Part shown: positions 52,728-56,214 of the stretch, in pieces | How positions within the stretch are numbered: position 1 is the first letter of the stretch | Layout: each line of letters begins with the position of its first letter | From: a virus | Taxonomy: Duplodnaviria; Heunggongvirae; Uroviricota; Caudoviricetes | Direction: 5' to 3' (one strand) | Length of the DNA: 64,000 nt | Virus record (IMG/VR): IMGVR_UViG_3300048599_000194 | Span: 239,177 to 303,176 of that record | Position numbers and translations under genes: made by a program | The notes under the pieces: generated by a model | The model's database searches: none | What the model was told of the DNA's origin: nothing | What the model saw: the letters and a program-made list of their open reading frames with translations, nothing else

Positions 52728-52846
52728 TGAGATAGTGAGATTTGAACTCACACGTCTGTAGGTGATAATACCCTCGACACCAACTTCGGTCACAGCGACT
52801 ATCCGCATACCTAGTCCAGCTTGTCTACCAGTTTCAACATATCTCA
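52728..52846 (-). ncRNA. oversized tRNA-like RNA (119 nt), unit 2
   Basis: Perfect 7-bp acceptor TGAGATA/TATCTCA, D-arm-like GG loop, T-arm GTGAG-TTCAAAT-CTCAC, ~55-nt insert where anticodon/variable arms belong. Confidence 0.35.
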
Positions 52847-53028
52847 ACCTAGACCTCGGTCGCGTCTAGAATGTCGAATTTATTAGCCAAGGTTGGGGAT
52901 CACCCACCATCAAATTCGATTTACTATCCATAATCTCACCAGTTGATTACTCTGGCTATTACGGTCGTGCGACAGTCATTCGCAGAGGCGCTCCTCTACC
53001 AGTTTCGATACTGGCTGAGCACATGTAG

Positions 53029-53103
53029 TAGTGGCGATGGGAGTCGAACCCACACAAACTTGGGTGAAGTCCAAGGAGCCTATACCAATTAGCCGACGCC
53101 ACC
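53029..53103 (-). tRNA. degenerate tRNA (Glu-like UUC anticodon, aberrant D-arm), unit 3
   Basis: Acceptor and T-arm pair, anticodon stem CTTGG/CCAAG with loop ACUUCAC (no U33), D-stem does not pair. Confidence 0.35.
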
Positions 53104-53118
53104 ATTAACAACAAAAAA

Positions 53119-53191
53119 TAGGGACGCAGGGACTCGAACCCTGATCATCGGACTGAAAACCCGAGGTCACTAACCCTTGGACGACGCCCCC
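53119..53191 (-). tRNA. tRNA-Glu(UUC)
   Basis: Cloverleaf; anticodon loop UUUUCAG. Confidence 0.75.
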
Positions 53192-53196
53192 ATTAG

Positions 53197-53268
53197 TAGC
53201 GACACGGGGAATTGAACCCCGGTGTGAAGATTGAGAATCTTCCGGACTAACCACTGTCCTATGTCGCC
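53197..53268 (-). tRNA. tRNA-Glu(CUC)
   Basis: Cloverleaf; anticodon loop UUCUCAA. Confidence 0.75.
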
Positions 53269-53497
53269 ATTACAATCTCTCACCTTGCAATGGTGTACAA
53301 AAACATGGGCTTTTCGACAATCAAGAAATGAGTAACAAGATTGAAGAGGAAAGACAAAAGCCTTATTACGAATTACTGACAGATTGAAGAGTTAAGACCC
53401 CCGAAGGGATACCCTTTATCATTATCAGTCCGTGTTAATTTTGTTTTCGCCGTAAGGCAAAAACCTCATTCCTCTCATGTTTACTCAGCCCACTAAA

Positions 53498-53947
53498 TCA
53501 ATCCGCAATCTCGATGTAATGAGATGCGTTGAAGTCATCAATCTTCTCTAGACGACTTTCGAGTTCAGCCTTGAGAGTCTTGATCTCGGATTCCTTACGG
53601 GAATAGTCAATTGCCACCACATTCTTGTAGGCAATGAATTCACCAGCCTTGTAATCCTGTCCGTCTTCTTCGGTGTTGAGTGCCTCGTAGAATGCAATCA
53701 ATCCCTTCAATTCATCAGAAACAAGGATGTCCTCGTAAATTTCCACATTCGCCTTGGCGAGTTCAGTCTTAATTGCTATGAGTCTATGAGTTAGCTTATC
53801 CAACTCAGCAACCAAGTCAAGCACGTTAATATGCTTGTTGGGATTGCGCTGACAATTAAACTGAGTAATCTTGCTACGGAGCTTTGCAATGTCTCCAGTC
53901 AAATTCTTCTTGACCTGAAGTGCCTTGCGAAGAGAATACTTAGCCAT
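53498..53947 (-). CDS. hypothetical protein
   Basis: ORF trimmed to Met so it does not run into tRNA-like element upstream. Confidence 0.45.
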   Translation of the reverse strand: MAKYSLRKALQVKKNLTGDIAKLRSKITQFNCQRNPNKHINVLDLVAELDKLTHRLIAIKTELAKANVEIYEDILVSDELKGLIAFYEALNTEEDGQDYKAGEFIAYKNVVAIDYSRKESEIKTLKAELESRLEKIDDFNASHYIEIAD

Positions 53948-53985
53948 TTTCTGTCTTTCTGTTTGACGTTTCGAGTTGTTTTTGG

Positions 53986-54057
53986 AAAGCTCCCGTGGGT
54001 GGAATCGAACCAAGCCATTCGTCATGCATAACTAGCGGCCTTTACCCTTCTCCCTAA
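53986..54057 (-). tRNA. tRNA-like element, poorly folding (possible pseudogene)
   Basis: TTCGATT T-loop motif but T-stem and acceptor pair poorly. Confidence 0.25.
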
Positions 54058-54100
54058 ATTGTCCTAGGCTCTAGGTGCTTTATCCAATAAGCTACGGGTA

Positions 54101-54174
54101 CAGGAGATGTAGGATTCGAACCCACAAGAATCGGGTTGGAGCCGACCGTTTTATCCAGTTGAAACTAATCTCCT
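54101..54174 (-). tRNA. tRNA-Trp(CCA)
   Basis: Cloverleaf; anticodon loop CUCCAAC; A1-U72. Confidence 0.8.
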
Positions 54175-54282
54175 ATCGTGGTCGCAGAGTTCCGAATCCA
54201 ACGGAAATCTCCCTCAATGGATCCGAGGGCGCGATTCATATACTGAGTTTTTCGTCAGCCTGTCATTACCACTACTCTGCAA

Positions 54283-54396
54283 AGCCGAGACGAGGAATCG
54301 AACCTCGGTTTCCGCCTTTCTGGCGGTATCCTTACCCTCTCCGGAGATAGGCATTGATCAGATGTCCTTGGGCGTTTACCACTAGATGATCTCGAC
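54283..54396 (-). ncRNA. oversized tRNA-like RNA (114 nt)
   Basis: T-arm CGAGG-TTCGATT-CCTCG, 3' acceptor TCTCGGC pairs fully with GTCGAGA ~110 nt upstream; internal hairpins replace anticodon region. Confidence 0.3.
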
Positions 54397-54497
54397 AGTA
54401 ATTTTTGCTTAGTATCTATCAGGCCGGGGTTATTCTCCCTATTATATCCGAAAGACTAGATTGGACTATTGGTGTCCTCTATACCATCTAAGCAAAG

Positions 54498-54569
54498 TGC
54501 CGGAGACAGGATTCGAACCTGTAACCTACTCCGTATGAAGGAGCCGCTCTACCATTGCGCTACACCGAC
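54498..54569 (-). tRNA. tRNA(CAU), elongator Met or Ile
   Basis: Cloverleaf; anticodon loop UUCAUAC; not initiator-like. Confidence 0.7.
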
Positions 54570-54576
54570 AATGAAG

Positions 54577-54649
54577 TCTAGAAAATGGGATTCGAACCCA
54601 TAACCTCTTGGTCCCTAACCAAGCACTCTACCAGTTGAGCTATATCCAG
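54577..54649 (-). tRNA. tRNA-Pro(AGG?), anticodon call tentative
   Basis: Cloverleaf; anticodon stem CTTGG/CCAAG, loop UUAGGGA. Confidence 0.55.
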
Positions 54650-54733
54650 ATTGATTAAATTGCAACATTCCCAGTCGAACGGAGAATATCGCATCTGGAC
54701 ATTCTCTAGAGTTTTCAAATCTCTAATGCAAAG

Positions 54734-54805
54734 TCGGAGTGGAGGGATTCGAACCCCCGATGCCCTGCTCCCAAAGCAGGTGACCTACCGCTGGCCTACA
54801 CCCCG
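54734..54805 (-). tRNA. tRNA-Pro(UGG)
   Basis: Cloverleaf; anticodon loop UUUGGGA. Confidence 0.75.
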
Positions 54806-54819
54806 ATGTGATCTCTAAG

Positions 54820-54892
54820 TGGGTACGGAGGGATTCGAACCCCCAACCAAGCGATTATGAGTCGCCTGCTCTAACCGTTGAGCTACGCACCC
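54820..54892 (-). tRNA. tRNA-Ile2(CAU, lysidine-type)
   Basis: Anticodon arm GGCGA-CUCAUAA-UCGCU and D-arm closely resemble E. coli ileX; lies directly beside TilS gene. Confidence 0.75.
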
Positions 54893-54897
54893 TAAAC

Positions 54898-55503
54898 TCA
54901 AATTCCGCGAATCCTAATCATCTTTCTAAGCATATTTTCAATACCTGGATTGACTTTTAGTATATTTGGCATCAATTCATGTCGAATCAAATTCCTAGTA
55001 TATTCGGTAGATGAATTAGAAGGATCTTGAATGTATTCAACATTGTTTCTAGACGCCCATTCATTGATTTCAGACTTTGAAACCATCAAAAATGGTCTAA
55101 AGACATGATTTCTCGCATACGGAATGACCTTAGGGAATCCTCTAAGGCTAGAAAAAACCCAAGTCTCTACGCAATCATTCAAATTATGTGCAGTTGCAAT
55201 CGGAAGATTAAACTGTTCGAGGAATTTATAGCGTTCATTTCGCCAAAACTCCTCATGCGATCCCTTTTCGGGCATTTTCTGGGAAATTTTACCAATTTCA
55301 AGAGAAATTCCGGTCTGATTTGCGAATTTCTCAAGGAATTCTTGAGCTTCCTGCCCGTGCTCAGTGCCATGATTGAAATAAAGAATCTTGAAATCGTATT
55401 TTGGGAATCTTCTAAGAAAATCAACCAAAACCATACTGTCAACGCCACCAGAACAAGCCACTGCAAAGGGTTCTTTAGGAAATTTTCCTAGAATCTGAAG
55501 CAT
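54898..55503 (-). CDS. tilS: tRNA(Ile)-lysidine synthetase-like PP-loop ATPase (TilS N-terminal domain)
   Basis: PP-loop AVACSGGVDSMVL; TilS-like ATAHNLNDCVETWVF; 201 aa, no C-terminal tRNA-binding domains. Confidence 0.65.
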   Translation of the reverse strand: MLQILGKFPKEPFAVACSGGVDSMVLVDFLRRFPKYDFKILYFNHGTEHGQEAQEFLEKFANQTGISLEIGKISQKMPEKGSHEEFWRNERYKFLEQFNLPIATAHNLNDCVETWVFSSLRGFPKVIPYARNHVFRPFLMVSKSEINEWASRNNVEYIQDPSNSSTEYTRNLIRHELMPNILKVNPGIENMLRKMIRIRGI

Positions 55504-55530
55504 ATTAGACCCCTTCTGGAAGATATTCTA

Positions 55531-55561
55531 AAGATACGATACGTTGGTGTTAACGTCAACC
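55531..55561 (-). promoter_or_regulatory. promoter-like motif upstream of tilS-like gene
   Basis: AAGATACGAT-N14-GTCAACC. Confidence 0.5.
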
Positions 55562-55706
55562 AATAATTGAGAATCCATTGGGTAAATTTGCCAATGTTTT
55601 CGCCGCAGAGCCGTTGAATTCAAAATGGATTGCGACTTTTTCGAGGTGACTTTCGTCTAGGGTTTCAAGAATTCAACAAGTACCCTCCCTCTAGATTCTC
55701 AAAAAG

Positions 55707-55778
55707 TAGCGGGGGCTGGATTTGAACCAGCGACCTTCAGGTTATGAGCCTGACAAGCTACCACTGCTCTACCCCGCA
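55707..55778 (-). tRNA. initiator tRNA-fMet(CAU)
   Basis: Near-identical to E. coli tRNA-fMet over D-arm, anticodon arm CUCAUAA and T-arm TTCAAAT; unpaired 1-72. Confidence 0.8.
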
Positions 55779-55780
55779 AG

Positions 55781-55853
55781 CAGACAGTGCAGGCTTCGAA
55801 CCTGCGATCTCTTGGTTAACGGCCAAGTGCTGTACCTACTCAGCTAACTGTCT
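55781..55853 (-). tRNA. tRNA-Asn(GUU) (C33)
   Basis: Cloverleaf; anticodon loop CCGUUAA. Confidence 0.6.
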
Positions 55854-56110
55854 ATTAAATCATCAGTTGTCCATCCAGAACGCCTCAATCGCGTTAGAGT
55901 TCTGTTATCTTCTGGATGTTTTCGCAGAATGGAGTGAATTTCCTACCGATCCATTTCCACTTTTTCGATTTAGTCTCACGACAAGGCCCATAGCTGAAAT
56001 TCACTCAAACGGCCTCATCTAGACAACTGACTATTTGGACGGAATTCCGGTTCGTTAAGCCGGATTGTAGCCCCCAATGGGCTTGATCTTACTTTAGACG
56101 AAACTCCGAG

Positions 56111-56214
56111 TGGGGGAGGCCGGATTCGAACCAACGATCAAGAAGTCGGACCATTGTCTGCTGACGCATTGACTGGCACTGCCTCTTAGCTTTAAGCCTC
56201 TAAGCTACTCCCCC
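56111..56214 (-). ncRNA. oversized tRNA-like RNA (104 nt)
   Basis: Perfect acceptor GGGGGAG/CTCCCCC, canonical D-arm GCTT-AGAGGCTTA-AAGC, T-arm with two G-U pairs; ~48-nt multi-hairpin insert replaces anticodon arm. Confidence 0.35.

What the first reader, a model, noticed from the sequence alone, without database searches (positions are those of the whole stretch)
52728..56214. Family of oversized tRNA-like RNAs with inserts replacing the anticodon arm
Three loci (52728-52846, 119 nt; 54283-54396, 114 nt; 56111-56214, 104 nt) have canonical tRNA ends but no normal anticodon arm. Each has a fully complementary 7-bp acceptor stem, a canonical D-arm with GG and a canonical T-arm. Between the D-arm and the T-arm sits a 45-55 nt multi-hairpin insert. 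A fourth locus (47897-48123) has tRNA 5' and 3' halves with a perfect acceptor match separated by ~150 nt. A fifth (45742-45823) has a perfect T-arm and anticodon-like hairpin but no 5' acceptor partner. Three or more independent perfect 7-mer acceptor matches are unlikely by chance. Possible explanations are tRNAs with small introns, tRNA-like regulatory or decoy RNAs such as Y-RNA-like modules, or substrates for tRNA cleavage/repair systems.
Basis: seen in the sequence. Interest (0 to 1): 0.7.

Follow-up and report, generated by a model that had tools for sequence, protein, structure and literature searches.

The report
Oversized tRNA-shaped RNAs in a phage
A phage's large tRNA gene cluster also carries at least six conserved genes for RNAs that keep the tRNA "top half" but have extra hairpins where the anticodon loop, D-loop or variable arm should be, so they almost certainly cannot read codons and their role is unknown.

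Summary
The window is part of a novel large phage. On the minus strand, between 42.1 and 57.8 kb, it carries 40 tRNA genes and a tmRNA gene. In the same array I find six oversized tRNA-shaped elements of 104-217 nt, each with a 7-bp acceptor stem and a canonical T-arm, plus one orphan T-arm. The inserts do not always replace the anticodon arm. They sit in the anticodon loop (56111, 52727), the D-loop (54283, 52374) or the variable arm (47907). Orthologues occur in more than ten related metagenomic phages. Acceptor, D, T and inserted helices all show compensatory changes (E4: 99% of cells paired, 9 covarying pairs). No conserved 7-nt anticodon loop survives in any family, and deleting the insert does not restore one consistently. 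My best reading is that these are non-decoding, tRNA-derived stable RNAs, cut out of the array like tRNAs, with fast-evolving arms as the functional part. The closest known analogue is T4 RNA C, whose function is also unknown. Y RNA, tmRNA, group I intron and pseudogene readings are not supported. Relatives carry tRNA-Asn and tRNA-Met genes split at position 34/35 by homologous 26-27-nt hairpins, which leaves a mini-intron reading open.

The parts
57727..57857 (-). E1: a 131-nt tRNA-like RNA, first element of the array and 6 nt upstream of tRNA-Arg(UCU). The 7-bp acceptor stem (GCUGUAU/AUAUAGC, one G-U) runs straight into an 8-bp helix that closes two variable hairpins, followed by the T-arm GACGG-UUCGAUU-CCGUC. 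It has no D-stem, a layout like the tRNA-like domain of tmRNA.
Evidence: My scanner found it. The consensus fold of 6 orthologues is. Rfam gives only a 12.7-bit tmRNA match.
56111..56214 (-). E2: a 104-nt tRNA-like RNA. It has a perfect acceptor (GGGGGAG/CUCCCCC), canonical D- and T-arms and discriminator A. The anticodon stem (AAGAG/UUCUU) carries 38 nt in place of a 7-nt loop.
   Evidence: Rfam tRNA scores 40.6 bits, with 40 nt where the model expects 9. It is 97% identical to L011, while its flanks are about 80% identical. L089 shows a compensatory change in the inserted helix, and other orthologues have unrelated arms.
54283..54396 (-). E3: a 114-nt tRNA-like RNA. The acceptor is GUCGAGA/UCUCGGC (one G-U). 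The D-stem AUCU/GGAU encloses a D-loop of about 52 nt (8 nt of ordinary D-loop plus a ~44-nt hairpin insert). The anticodon-like hairpin has only a 5-nt loop. The T-arm is CGAGG-UUCGAUU-CCUCG and the discriminator is U.
   Evidence: In one search, 94.5% of cells are paired, 8 pairs carry compensatory changes, and 0 of 500 shuffles reach the observed values.
52727..52846 (-). E4: a 120-nt RNA derived from tRNA-Leu (class II). It has a perfect acceptor (UGAGAUA/UAUCUCA), a 3-bp D-stem, a three-helix extended anticodon arm, a long variable arm, a T-arm and discriminator U.
   Evidence: It aligns with the phage's own tRNA-Leu genes. In one search, 99.4% of cells are paired, 9 pairs are compensatory, and 0 of 500 shuffles reach the observed values. 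Orthologues down to 73% identity are.
52374..52523 (-). E5: a 150-nt paralogue of E4, 6 nt upstream of tRNA-Thr(UGU). It has a 30-nt hairpin inserted in the D-loop, a 7-bp 'anticodon' stem with a 19-nt loop holding a small hairpin, a long variable arm and a G3-U70 pair.
Evidence: Twelve pairs carry compensatory changes. The D-loop hairpin is absent from the L021 orthologue.
47907..48123 (-). E6: a 217-nt tRNA-like RNA. It has a perfect acceptor (CGAGGAG/CUCCUCG), a D-arm, a 4-bp stem with a 10-nt loop at the anticodon position, a branched insert of about 130 nt at the variable-arm position, and a T-arm. A conserved 66-codon ORF starts 20 nt downstream.
   Evidence: 5 orthologues at about 89% identity, 6 compensatory pairs. 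It is 90% identical to L011, while its flanks are 78-82% identical.
45742..45823 (-). E7: an orphan T-arm (45757-45773, ACAGG-UUCGAGU-CCUGU) next to a hairpin, with no 7-bp acceptor partner. It is probably a degenerate remnant.
   Evidence: Sequence; my hand reading of it gives 5 of 7 possible acceptor pairs. Searches find no 7-bp partner. The fetched relatives do not cover this region.
42172..57720 (-). Context: an array of 40 canonical tRNA genes and a tmRNA gene (46652-46996) in which E1-E7 are embedded. A strong terminator-like hairpin lies at 42145-42170.
   Evidence: None of the 40 standard array genes with a detected T-arm (39 tRNAs and the tmRNA) encodes CCA. Of these, 29, as well as E2, E4, E5 and E6, have CU directly after the discriminator, against a background frequency of 5.6%.
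62889..63941 (-). Context: a phage-encoded CCA-adding enzyme (PolyA_pol domains, N-terminus cut by ORF calling). It is needed because no array gene encodes CCA.
   Evidence: The full-length 405-aa orthologue is in L012.
54898..55503 (-). Context: a TilS-like PP-loop enzyme inside the array. I used it as the handle to fetch related phages.

Best explanation
E1-E6 are genuine, selectively maintained genes for tRNA-derived RNAs that do not decode. They are co-transcribed with the 40 tRNAs and the tmRNA.

Each keeps the parts of a tRNA that the maturation machinery recognises: the acceptor stem, the T-arm, the D-stem or elbow, and the same 3' trailer. I therefore infer three processing steps. RNase P cuts the 5' end. 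The same 3' processing activity that serves the neighbouring tRNAs cuts after the discriminator. The phage's own CCA-adding enzyme then completes the 3' end. The products would be stable RNAs of 104-217 nt.

The places that tolerate insertions without breaking the L-shape (anticodon loop, D-loop around position 20, variable arm) carry extra helices. These replace or destroy the anticodon loop, so the RNAs cannot read codons.

The extra arms are the working part or the fast-evolving part. The most likely role is as tRNA mimics displayed on a tRNA chassis, which bind, titrate or distract a tRNA-binding protein of host or phage. Candidates for that protein are a processing, modification or charging enzyme, or a tRNA-targeting defence nuclease.

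The elements arose by hairpin insertions into ordinary tRNA genes. E4 and E5 arose from tRNA-Leu.

**Shown:** existence, conservation, covariation, tRNA-Leu ancestry, the shared 3' trailer, and the lack of a conserved anticodon loop.

**Inferred:** transcription, processing, stability, and the mimic or decoy role.
For: - Six of seven orphan T-arms have a 7-bp acceptor partner, against a chance of 0.01-0.11 each.
- Orthologues occupy conserved positions in more than ten related phage contigs whose array proteins are 53-98% identical.
- E2 is 97% identical to L011, while its flanks are about 80%. E6 is 90%, against 78-82% for its flanks.
- Compensatory changes occur in the acceptor, D and T stems and also in the inserted helices. 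E4 has 9 of 33 pairs and 99.4% of cells paired. E3 has 8 of 29 pairs. Neither is reached by any of 500 shuffles, and slid controls give about 40% paired. E1, E5 and E6 behave likewise.
- E4 aligns with the phage's tRNA-Leu genes.
- No family keeps a 7-nt loop or a fixed triplet. The E3 loops are AGAAA, CCUCACA and CCGCAAAA. The E2 arm measures 38 nt, 19 nt or 9 nt in different orthologues. The E4 flanks sum to 6, 7 or 8 nt.
- E2, E4, E5 and E6 share the CU trailer found after 29 of 40 canonical genes. No gene encodes CCA, and the phage encodes a CCA-adding enzyme.
- T4 RNA C, a 139-nt stable RNA from the T4 tRNA cluster, likewise has a canonical T-arm and paired ends.
Against: - I have no expression, processing or stability data, and no binding partner was identified.
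- The rapid turnover of the arms could reflect relaxed constraint rather than an arms race.
- E2 can be parsed as tRNA-Arg(CCG) plus a 31-nt insert.
- Relatives carry cleanly interrupted tRNA-Asn and tRNA-Met genes whose exons stay under tRNA-like constraint. This hints that some inserts may be removed from the RNA.
- E4 has discriminator U instead of the A73 seen in the phage's own tRNA-Leu genes, and E1 lacks a D-arm. How well each element is recognised by tRNA enzymes is therefore untested.
Confidence: 0.6

Rival explanations
1. The elements are intron-containing tRNA genes. The inserted hairpins are small introns, not of group I type, that a protein endonuclease and an RNA ligase of phage or host remove to give normal decoding tRNAs.
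For: - ARAGORN in intron mode parses E2 as tRNA-Arg(CCG) plus 31 nt, and Arg-CCG is otherwise missing from the set.
- In relatives, a tRNA-Met/Ile2(CAU) gene in L025 has exons matching the window gene at all but one position, 72 (A in L025, T in the window), plus a 27-nt hairpin.
- A tRNA-Asn(GUU) gene in L018, L019 and L025 carries a homologous 26-nt hairpin at the same 34/35 position. Its acceptor and anticodon stems show compensatory changes, and its loop bases are unchanged.
Against: - No solution exists for E1, E3, E4 or E5. The E6 solution needs mismatches.
- The E2 triplet is CCG, CAG or frame-shifted in close orthologues and absent in others.
- Deleting the E4 hairpin leaves 6, 7 or 8 nt, and E4 has discriminator U instead of the A73 of the phage's own tRNA-Leu genes.
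- E3 has a 5-6-nt loop even after the D-loop insert is ignored.
- By my reading of the folds there is no bulge-helix-bulge motif.
- Rfam gives no group I intron hit.
- No splicing endonuclease, RtcB, Rnl or Pnkp domain was found in the 64-kb window.
- tmRNA and TilS point to a bacterial host, which has no tRNA splicing endonuclease. That last point is established knowledge, not tested here.
Confidence: 0.12
2. The elements are decaying pseudogenes. Redundant tRNA copies were disabled by hairpin insertions, perhaps as scars of the homing endonucleases that riddle these arrays or as protection against them, and the RNAs have no function.
For: - The arrays of relatives are full of HNH and LAGLIDADG genes.
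- In a 98.7%-identical strain, an HNH gene replaces tRNA-Asn 55780-55853.
- Inserts show presence/absence polymorphism.
- E8 has been lost from the window.
- E7 looks degenerate.
Against: - Neutral decay does not produce compensatory substitutions in all helices, including the inserted ones.
- It does not explain 97% identity inside 80%-identical flanks.
- It does not explain retention at fixed positions across phages whose proteins are only about 53% identical.
Confidence: 0.08
3. The elements are processing punctuation. Like the t-elements of plant mitochondria, they exist only to direct RNase P and 3' endonuclease cuts that free neighbouring tRNAs or small mRNAs.
For: - E6 ends 20 nt before a conserved 66-codon ORF.
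- E1 is the first structure after promoter-like sites.
- The 3' trailer is shared with tRNAs.
Against: - E2, E3, E4 and E5 have no adjacent ORF.
- A punctuation role needs only the chassis. It does not explain covariation and sequence conservation in the inserted arms.
Confidence: 0.1
4. The elements are Y-RNA-like partners of a phage Ro60 (TROVE) protein, or tmRNA-like rescue RNAs.
For: - A more distant relative (L013) encodes a TROVE protein and a YrlA-like RNA in its tRNA region.
- E2 contains UGGUCCGA, a match to the conserved Ro-binding strand of metazoan Y RNAs. This rests on my own knowledge.
- E1 has a tmRNA-like helix layout.
- E5 has G3-U70.
Against: - Rfam gives no YrlA or Y_RNA hit at E<=1.
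- YrlA is circularly permuted (T-arm, then closed acceptor, then D-arm), whereas the E elements have open acceptor ends.
- The 8-mer changes to UGGUCAGA in L011 and is absent from other orthologues.
- The window holds no TROVE gene.
- There is no tag reading frame and no pseudoknots.
- A separate complete tmRNA gene exists.
- G3-U70 occurs only in E5, and the L021 orthologue has G-C there.
Confidence: 0.05

Closest known systems
Phage T4 RNA C (species 1 RNA, rnaC) and RNA D, small stable RNAs of the T4 tRNA gene cluster
   Same: - They are encoded inside a phage tRNA cluster that also holds a homing endonuclease gene (segB).
- They are oversized (139 and 119 nt).
- RNA C ends in a canonical T-arm (CCGGG-UUCGAAU-CCCGG) followed by a strand that pairs with its 5' end.
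- Their function is still unknown (PMC3014915, PMC9697503).
   Different: - Beyond the T-loop there is no detectable sequence similarity.
- The RNA C acceptor pairs at only 5 of 7 positions, and RNA C has no D-arm.
- T4 has two such RNAs. This phage has six to eight, in distinct families with insertions at three different tRNA positions.
tmRNA (Rfam RF00023)
   Same: Both are tRNA-like, with an acceptor stem and a T-arm and a large insertion in place of the anticodon arm. E1 has the acceptor stem running into a long closing helix and no D-stem.
   Different: - The E elements have no tag reading frame and no pseudoknots.
- They are 104-217 nt, against 345 nt for the tmRNA.
- E1 scores only 12.7 bits against a gathering score of 47.
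- The alanine identity pair G3-U70 occurs only in E5.
- The phage has a separate full tmRNA gene.
YrlA, the bacterial and phage Y RNA (Rfam RF02553)
   Same: It is a non-decoding RNA with a tRNA-like module, and it is found in phages. A relative of this phage has one next to a TROVE gene.
   Different: - YrlA is circularly permuted. Its ends form the Ro-binding stem and its acceptor is closed by a loop.
- The window gives no Rfam hit and has no TROVE gene.
Intron-containing tRNA genes (bacterial group I introns; archaeal and eukaryal bulge-helix-bulge introns)
   Same: Both involve extra sequence inside the anticodon loop, and in archaea also inside the D-loop or variable region, of an otherwise tRNA-like gene. 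The interrupted tRNA-Asn and tRNA-Met genes of relatives are split at 34/35. By established knowledge, the classic tRNA-Leu(UAA) group I intron sits at the same position.
   Different: - Inserts of 25-130 nt are too small for group I introns, and Rfam gives no match.
- I see no bulge-helix-bulge motif.
- Removing the insert does not restore a conserved anticodon loop in E1 or E3-E6.
Engineered 'tRNA scaffold' RNAs, in which a recombinant RNA is grafted into the anticodon stem of a tRNA for stable expression in E. coli (this rests on my own knowledge; a related paper, PMC3753655, appeared but I did not read it)
   Same: It works the same way. A foreign hairpin carried on an intact acceptor/T/D chassis is processed and stabilised by the tRNA maturation machinery.
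   Different: The scaffold is man-made. The comparison is an analogy of mechanism only.

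Membership tests
tRNA (Rfam RF00005) | Match to the covariance model at or above the gathering score (29 bits) | tested here: inconclusive
   E2 scores 40.6 bits, but only by skipping 40 nt. E1, E3, E4, E5 and E6 give no tRNA match even at E<=1. The default ARAGORN run calls none of them.
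tRNA (functional decoder) | A 7-nt anticodon loop with a conserved anticodon on a 5-bp stem | tested here: not met
   The loops measure 38 nt (E2), 5 nt (E3), about 30 nt (E4), 19 nt (E5) and 10 nt (E6), and E1 has none. Loop sequences differ between orthologues.
tRNA gene with group I intron | A self-splicing core (P3-P9) of roughly 200 nt or more that matches Rfam Intron_gpI | tested here: not met
   cmscan gives no Intron_gpI match at E<=1 over 41-59 kb. The inserts are 25-130 nt.
tRNA gene with protein-spliced (bulge-helix-bulge) intron | Precise removal of the insert gives a canonical tRNA whose anticodon is conserved in orthologues | tested here: not met
   ARAGORN in intron mode finds solutions only for E2 and, with mismatches, E6. 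The E2 triplet is not conserved. The E4 flanks sum to 6, 7 or 8 nt.
tRNA gene with protein-spliced (bulge-helix-bulge) intron | Presence of a splicing endonuclease and an RNA ligase | tested here: inconclusive
   Pfam scans of 78 window ORFs found no such domain. The window is only part of the genome, and host enzymes are unknown.
tmRNA (RF00023) | A tag reading frame, pseudoknots, G3-U70, and a model score of at least 47 bits | tested here: not met
   E1 scores 12.7 bits and the others give no match. There is no tag ORF. G3-U70 occurs only in E5. The true tmRNA lies at 46652-46996.
YrlA / Y RNA (RF02553, RF00019) | Permuted arm order (T-arm, closed acceptor hairpin, D-arm) with the ends forming a Ro-binding stem, plus a linked Ro60/TROVE gene | tested here: not met
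   Rfam gives no match at E<=1. The E elements have open acceptor ends, as shown by comparison with the L013 YrlA alignment. tblastn with the L013 TROVE protein finds nothing in the window.
Phage tRNA-cluster small stable RNAs (T4 RNA C type) | Encoded within a phage tRNA operon, longer than a tRNA, with a tRNA-like T-arm and paired termini | tested here: met
   This group is defined by description rather than by homology, and sequence similarity is limited to the T-loop.
Phage tRNA-cluster small stable RNAs (T4 RNA C type) | Accumulates as a stable processed RNA during infection | not testable with these tools
   This needs Northern blots or small-RNA sequencing of infected cells. The host is unknown and the phage is known only from metagenomes.

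The most novel reading that the evidence does not exclude
This phage lineage has a mobile hairpin element of about 26 nt that inserts into tRNA genes. It is seen at anticodon position 34/35 in tRNA-Asn and tRNA-Met/Ile2, and other hairpins are seen in D-loops. A protein-based cut-and-ligate pathway removes the hairpin from the RNA. If so, these would be tRNA introns of a non-group-I kind in a bacterial virus. The oversized tRNA-like RNAs of the window would be older products of the same insertion process that were recruited to new, non-decoding roles.
Probability: 0.15. Interest if true: 0.9.

Novelty: new variant of a known kind. Interest (0 to 1): 0.66.

Why it matters
Small stable RNAs in phage tRNA clusters have been known since T4 RNA C and RNA D were described in the 1970s, and their role remains unexplained. 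This phage lineage offers something T4 does not: six to eight distinct tRNA-shaped RNAs per genome, with orthologues diverse enough to show covariation and clear tRNA ancestry.

- **What is constrained.** The lineage shows that selection keeps the chassis used in tRNA processing. The arms that would contact mRNA or anticodon-reading proteins change quickly.
- **What it makes testable.** That pattern yields testable hypotheses: tRNA mimicry or decoy action towards host tRNA-targeting defences or tRNA enzymes, or natural tRNA scaffolds for functional hairpins.
- **Annotation.** Standard tRNA finders and Rfam miss five of the six elements. Similar RNAs may therefore be common and unannotated in large phages.
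- **The mini-intron question.** The cleanly interrupted tRNA-Asn and tRNA-Met genes in relatives raise the question of whether bacteria-infecting viruses have protein-spliced tRNA mini-introns.

Tried and rejected
1. **Close relatives in GenBank phages.** A megablast of 52-57 kb matched only generic tRNA segments. The best protein match was 51% identical, to Bacillus phages. The phage has no cultured relative.
2. **IMG/VR.**
   - The TilS query returned only relatives at 48% identity or less, with small tRNA sets.
   - The 175-aa ORF query found nothing.
   - Three DNA patterns found nothing. The first of these was mis-designed.
3. **Base-pairing targets.** The longest complementarities between E elements and other window transcripts (10-12 nt) do not exceed those of shuffled controls.
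4. **Single-sequence folding.** The energy z-scores were unremarkable (+0.18, -1.59 and -2.57). Only the comparative analysis was informative.
5. **Promoter and terminator scan.** Counts were near those of the shuffles. A recurring TTGACT-17-TATCTT site is only suggestive.
6. **Array-embedded ORFs as candidate partner enzymes.**
   - Pfam, PHROGs and NCBIfam gave nothing relevant for window ORFs 48795-49337, 50455-50865, 51448-51819 and 53498-54025.
   - The conserved 149-aa ORF (53498-53944) gave a high-confidence model (pLDDT 92.7). That model matches only PDB entry 3kdq, a Corynebacterium protein of unknown function (TM-score 0.75).
7. **ARAGORN intron mode on all loci.** Most calls were artefacts that fused neighbouring tRNAs or needed mismatches. 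I kept only the Asn and Met cases.
8. **E4 as tRNA-Leu(UAA) with a 25-nt intron.** This looked attractive with five sequences. I dropped it when L098 and L020 showed flank lengths of 6 and 8 nt, and because E4 has discriminator U where the phage's tRNA-Leu genes have A.
9. **Literature.** Four full-text searches found no description of oversized tRNA-like genes or mini-introns in phage tRNA arrays.

Full report
**What the window is.** All genes lie on the minus strand, and G+C content is 32-45%. ARAGORN and Rfam agree on 40 tRNA genes covering all 20 amino acids, plus a tmRNA gene, between 42.1 and 57.8 kb. The surrounding genes are phage-like and centred on RNA. They include a CCA-adding enzyme, a TilS-like enzyme inside the array, a Thg1-like enzyme, an Apyc1 homologue and a WGR-PARP protein. 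NADAR, DUF4326, RNase T and ATP-grasp domains are also present. GenBank holds no close relative. Near-identical and related contigs come from activated-sludge and other environmental metagenome assemblies. tmRNA and TilS point to a bacterial host; that inference rests on established knowledge.

**Checking the observation.** I read the three main loci on the minus strand and wrote a scanner for a T-arm followed by a 7-nt strand with a complementary partner 60-400 nt upstream.
- E2 (56111-56214) has a perfect acceptor, and Rfam's tRNA model scores it at 40.6 bits by skipping 40 nt at the anticodon loop.
- E3 (54283-54396) has one G-U pair in its acceptor.
- E4 (52727-52846) has a perfect acceptor.
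- E6 is really 47907-48123.
- E7 (45742-45823) has a T-arm but no 7-bp acceptor partner; by hand reading, only 5 of 7 pairs are possible.

Six of the seven G+C-rich orphan T-arms in the array have a 7-bp partner. In shuffled upstream sequence the chance is 0.01-0.11 per arm. Coincidence is therefore excluded.

**Comparative evidence.** I used the TilS-like protein and a conserved 149-aa array ORF as handles to fetch syntenic arrays. These range from a 98.7%-identical strain to phages whose proteins are only about 53% identical.
- The elements sit at conserved positions.
- E2 is 97% identical to its L011 orthologue, while both flanks are about 80%. E6 is 90%, against 78-82% for its flanks.
- For E4, the cloverleaf-like consensus has 99.4% of cells paired and 9 of 33 pairs with compensatory changes. 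None of 500 shuffles reaches this, and slid controls give about 40% paired.
- For E3, the figures are 94.5% paired and 8 of 29 compensatory pairs.
- E1, E5 and E6 also show compensatory changes.
- The covariation extends to the inserted helices. In E4, GCG/CGC becomes GUG/CAC or GAG/CUC, and GGU/ACC becomes GAC/GUC. In E2 of L089, GCCA/UGGU becomes GUCA/UGAC.

These are genes under selection, not accidents and not decaying copies.

**Anatomy.** The inserts do not all replace the anticodon arm.
- E2 keeps its anticodon stem but has 38 nt in place of the loop.
- E4 aligns with the phage's own tRNA-Leu genes through the D-arm, variable arm and T-arm. About 25 extra nt form two further helices on top of its anticodon stem.
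- E5 is a paralogue of E4. It has in addition a 30-nt hairpin in the D-loop, which is absent from the L021 orthologue.
- E3 has its insert inside the D-loop and a stunted anticodon hairpin.
- E6 has a branched insert of about 130 nt at the variable-arm position and a 10-nt loop on a 4-bp stem.
- E1 has no D-stem. Its acceptor continues into an 8-bp helix that closes two variable hairpins.
- An eighth family, E8, lies beside E3 in many relatives but is missing from the window.

The anticodon loop, the D-loop around position 20 and the variable region are the three sites where a tRNA tolerates extra RNA without losing its L-shape. That point rests on established structural knowledge. The acceptor stem, T-arm and D-stem or elbow are what stays constant.

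**Are they tRNAs with introns?** I tested whether removing a contiguous segment gives a canonical tRNA.
- ARAGORN in intron mode finds nothing for E1, E3, E4, E5 or E7. It finds a mismatch-laden solution for E6, and Arg-CCG plus 31 nt at position 32/33 for E2.
- The E2 triplet is CCG in the window, L010, L031 and L090. It is CAG in the 97%-identical L011, and displaced by one base in L089. L012, L022 and L029 have unrelated arms of 9-19 nt there.
- E4 initially looked like tRNA-Leu(UAA) with a 25-nt insert. With more orthologues, however, the nucleotides left after removing the hairpin number 6, 7 or 8. Its discriminator is U, where all the phage's tRNA-Leu genes have A.
- The E3 loops are AGAAA, CCUCACA or CCGCAAAA.
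- Rfam gives no group I intron match. I see no bulge-helix-bulge motif. The window encodes no recognisable splicing endonuclease or RNA ligase.

For the flagged loci the intron reading is therefore not supported.

**A related observation keeps the intron reading alive elsewhere.**
- In L025 and L026, the tRNA(CAU) gene just upstream of TilS matches the window's gene (55706-55778) at every exon position except position 72. It carries a 27-nt hairpin between anticodon positions 34 and 35.
- In L018, L019 and L025, the orthologue of the window's tRNA-Asn (56402-56475) carries a 26-nt hairpin at the same position. In a local BLAST of the two interrupted genes, a 56-nt stretch spanning both hairpins is about 70% identical. 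Within L025, 18 of 20 hairpin positions match.
- Between L018 and L025, the interrupted Asn gene has compensatory changes in its acceptor and anticodon stems, and its loop bases (CUG...UUAA) are unchanged.

This pattern fits either a removable insert or the first step towards an E-type RNA. HNH genes lie next to both interrupted Asn genes. The arrays of relatives are crowded with HNH and LAGLIDADG genes. In the 98.7%-identical strain L010, an HNH gene replaces tRNA-Asn 55780-55853.

**Other known classes.**
- *Y RNA.* Rfam finds no YrlA or Y_RNA. The YrlA of the relative L013, which also encodes a TROVE protein, shows the permuted arm order that the E elements lack. The window has no TROVE gene.
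- *tmRNA.* Only E1 resembles its tRNA-like domain, at 12.7 bits. No element has a tag reading frame, and a full tmRNA gene is present separately.
- *T4 RNA C.* I fetched the T4 tRNA region. RNA C is 139 nt and ends in a canonical T-arm followed by a strand that pairs with its 5' end at 5 of 7 positions. Outside the T-loop it shares no sequence with the E elements. Its function is unknown (PMC3014915, PMC9697503). It is the nearest known analogue.

**How the elements most likely work.**
- Of the 40 standard array genes with a detected T-arm (39 tRNAs and the tmRNA), none encodes CCA and 29 have CU directly after the discriminator. The background frequency of CU is 5.6%. E2, E4, E5 and E6 have the same trailer.
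- E1 and E5 lie 6 nt from the next tRNA.
- The phage supplies a CCA-adding enzyme.

From this I infer that the elements are transcribed with the array, cut by RNase P and the same 3' activity as the tRNAs, and given a CCA end. They would then accumulate as stable RNAs that cannot decode. Their conserved chassis makes them look like tRNAs to proteins that read the acceptor/T-arm/elbow. Their arms carry the specificity and change quickly. Tight conservation among close relatives, combined with wholesale replacement among distant ones, fits an RNA that binds a fast-evolving partner. One example would be a decoy or inhibitor of a tRNA-directed host nuclease or enzyme. Relaxed constraint on the arms cannot be excluded. 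Only the existence, conservation, structure and ancestry of the elements are shown here; everything about their expression and role is inference.

**Novelty and score.** tRNA-like stable RNAs in phage tRNA clusters are a known but unexplained kind. This is a new and much richer variant: multiple families, insertions at three tRNA positions, and clear covariation. Standard tools miss most of the elements. I score interest at 0.66. The most novel reading not excluded is a mobile hairpin that acts as a protein-spliced tRNA mini-intron in a bacterial virus. I give that about 15% probability; it would be of high interest if true.

**Dead ends.** These are listed under 'tried and rejected'. They include the structural model of the conserved array ORF, which matches only a protein of unknown function.

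Noticed in passing
L025:4195-4293 and L026:371-470, compared with window 55706-55778: A tRNA(CAU) gene upstream of TilS matches the window gene at every exon position except position 72. It is split between anticodon positions 34 and 35 by a 27-nt hairpin (ACGAGTCCATCTATACGGTGGACTGGT).
   Followed up: partly
L018:3674-3773, L019:992-1091 and L025:3138-3237, compared with window 56402-56475: A tRNA-Asn(GUU) orthologue is interrupted at 34/35 by a 26-nt hairpin homologous to the one in the Met gene. The exons keep compensatory changes between L018 and L025, and an HNH gene lies just downstream in both.
   Followed up: partly
L010:8126-9082, compared with window 55780-55901: In a 98.7%-identical strain, a 957-bp segment carrying an HNH_2 endonuclease gene on the opposite strand replaces tRNA-Asn 55780-55853. 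The arrays of relatives hold many HNH and LAGLIDADG genes.
   Followed up: partly
L011:4698-4830 and L012:11255-11389 (also L090, L092, L094-L097); the window equivalent would lie within 54176-54282: An eighth oversized tRNA-like element (E8, 133-135 nt) has hairpins in the D-loop, anticodon arm and variable arm. It sits 2 nt after E3 in relatives and is absent from the window.
   Followed up: partly
window 42172-57720: No array gene encodes CCA. Of the 40 standard array genes with a detected T-arm (39 tRNAs and the tmRNA), 29 have CU directly after the discriminator (background 5.6%), which suggests a shared 3'-processing signal.
   Followed up: partly
window 43978-45264: A WGR + PARP regulatory + PARP catalytic protein is encoded at the end of the tRNA array. 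NADAR and DUF4326 domains occur elsewhere in the window, suggesting an NAD/ADP-ribose system.
   Followed up: no
window 34821-35627 and 33245-34006: The window encodes a Thg1-like 3'-5' nucleotidyltransferase and an Apyc1 (anti-Pycsar) homologue.
   Followed up: no
L013:3494-4885 and L013:6667-6796: A more distant relative encodes a TROVE (Ro60) protein. About 1.8 kb downstream lies a YrlA-like RNA that scores 39.9 bits, below Rfam's gathering score of 69.
   Followed up: partly
window 52245-52251: A second exact copy of the 5' acceptor strand GCCAATG of tRNA-Thr(CGU) lies 89 nt upstream of that gene. It may be a remnant of a duplicated 5' half.
   Followed up: no
window 54576-54649: A tRNA-Pro gene has anticodon AGG (A at position 34). 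From my own knowledge, this is an unusual anticodon for a bacterial-type tRNA set.
   Followed up: no
window 58139-58111, 58037-58009, 48791-48763 and 42140-42112 (minus strand): The promoter-like site TTGACT-17 nt-TATCTT recurs on the transcribed strand. The total count of promoter-like sites is not above that of shuffled sequence.
   Followed up: no
window 53498-53944: A conserved 149-aa ORF in the middle of the array folds with high confidence into a helical bundle with a beta-hairpin. It matches only PDB 3kdq (DIP1984 family), whose function is unknown.
   Followed up: yes
L027:1409-1547 (T4 rnaC): T4 RNA C has a canonical T-arm and partly paired termini, so it is itself an oversized tRNA-like RNA.
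   Followed up: partly
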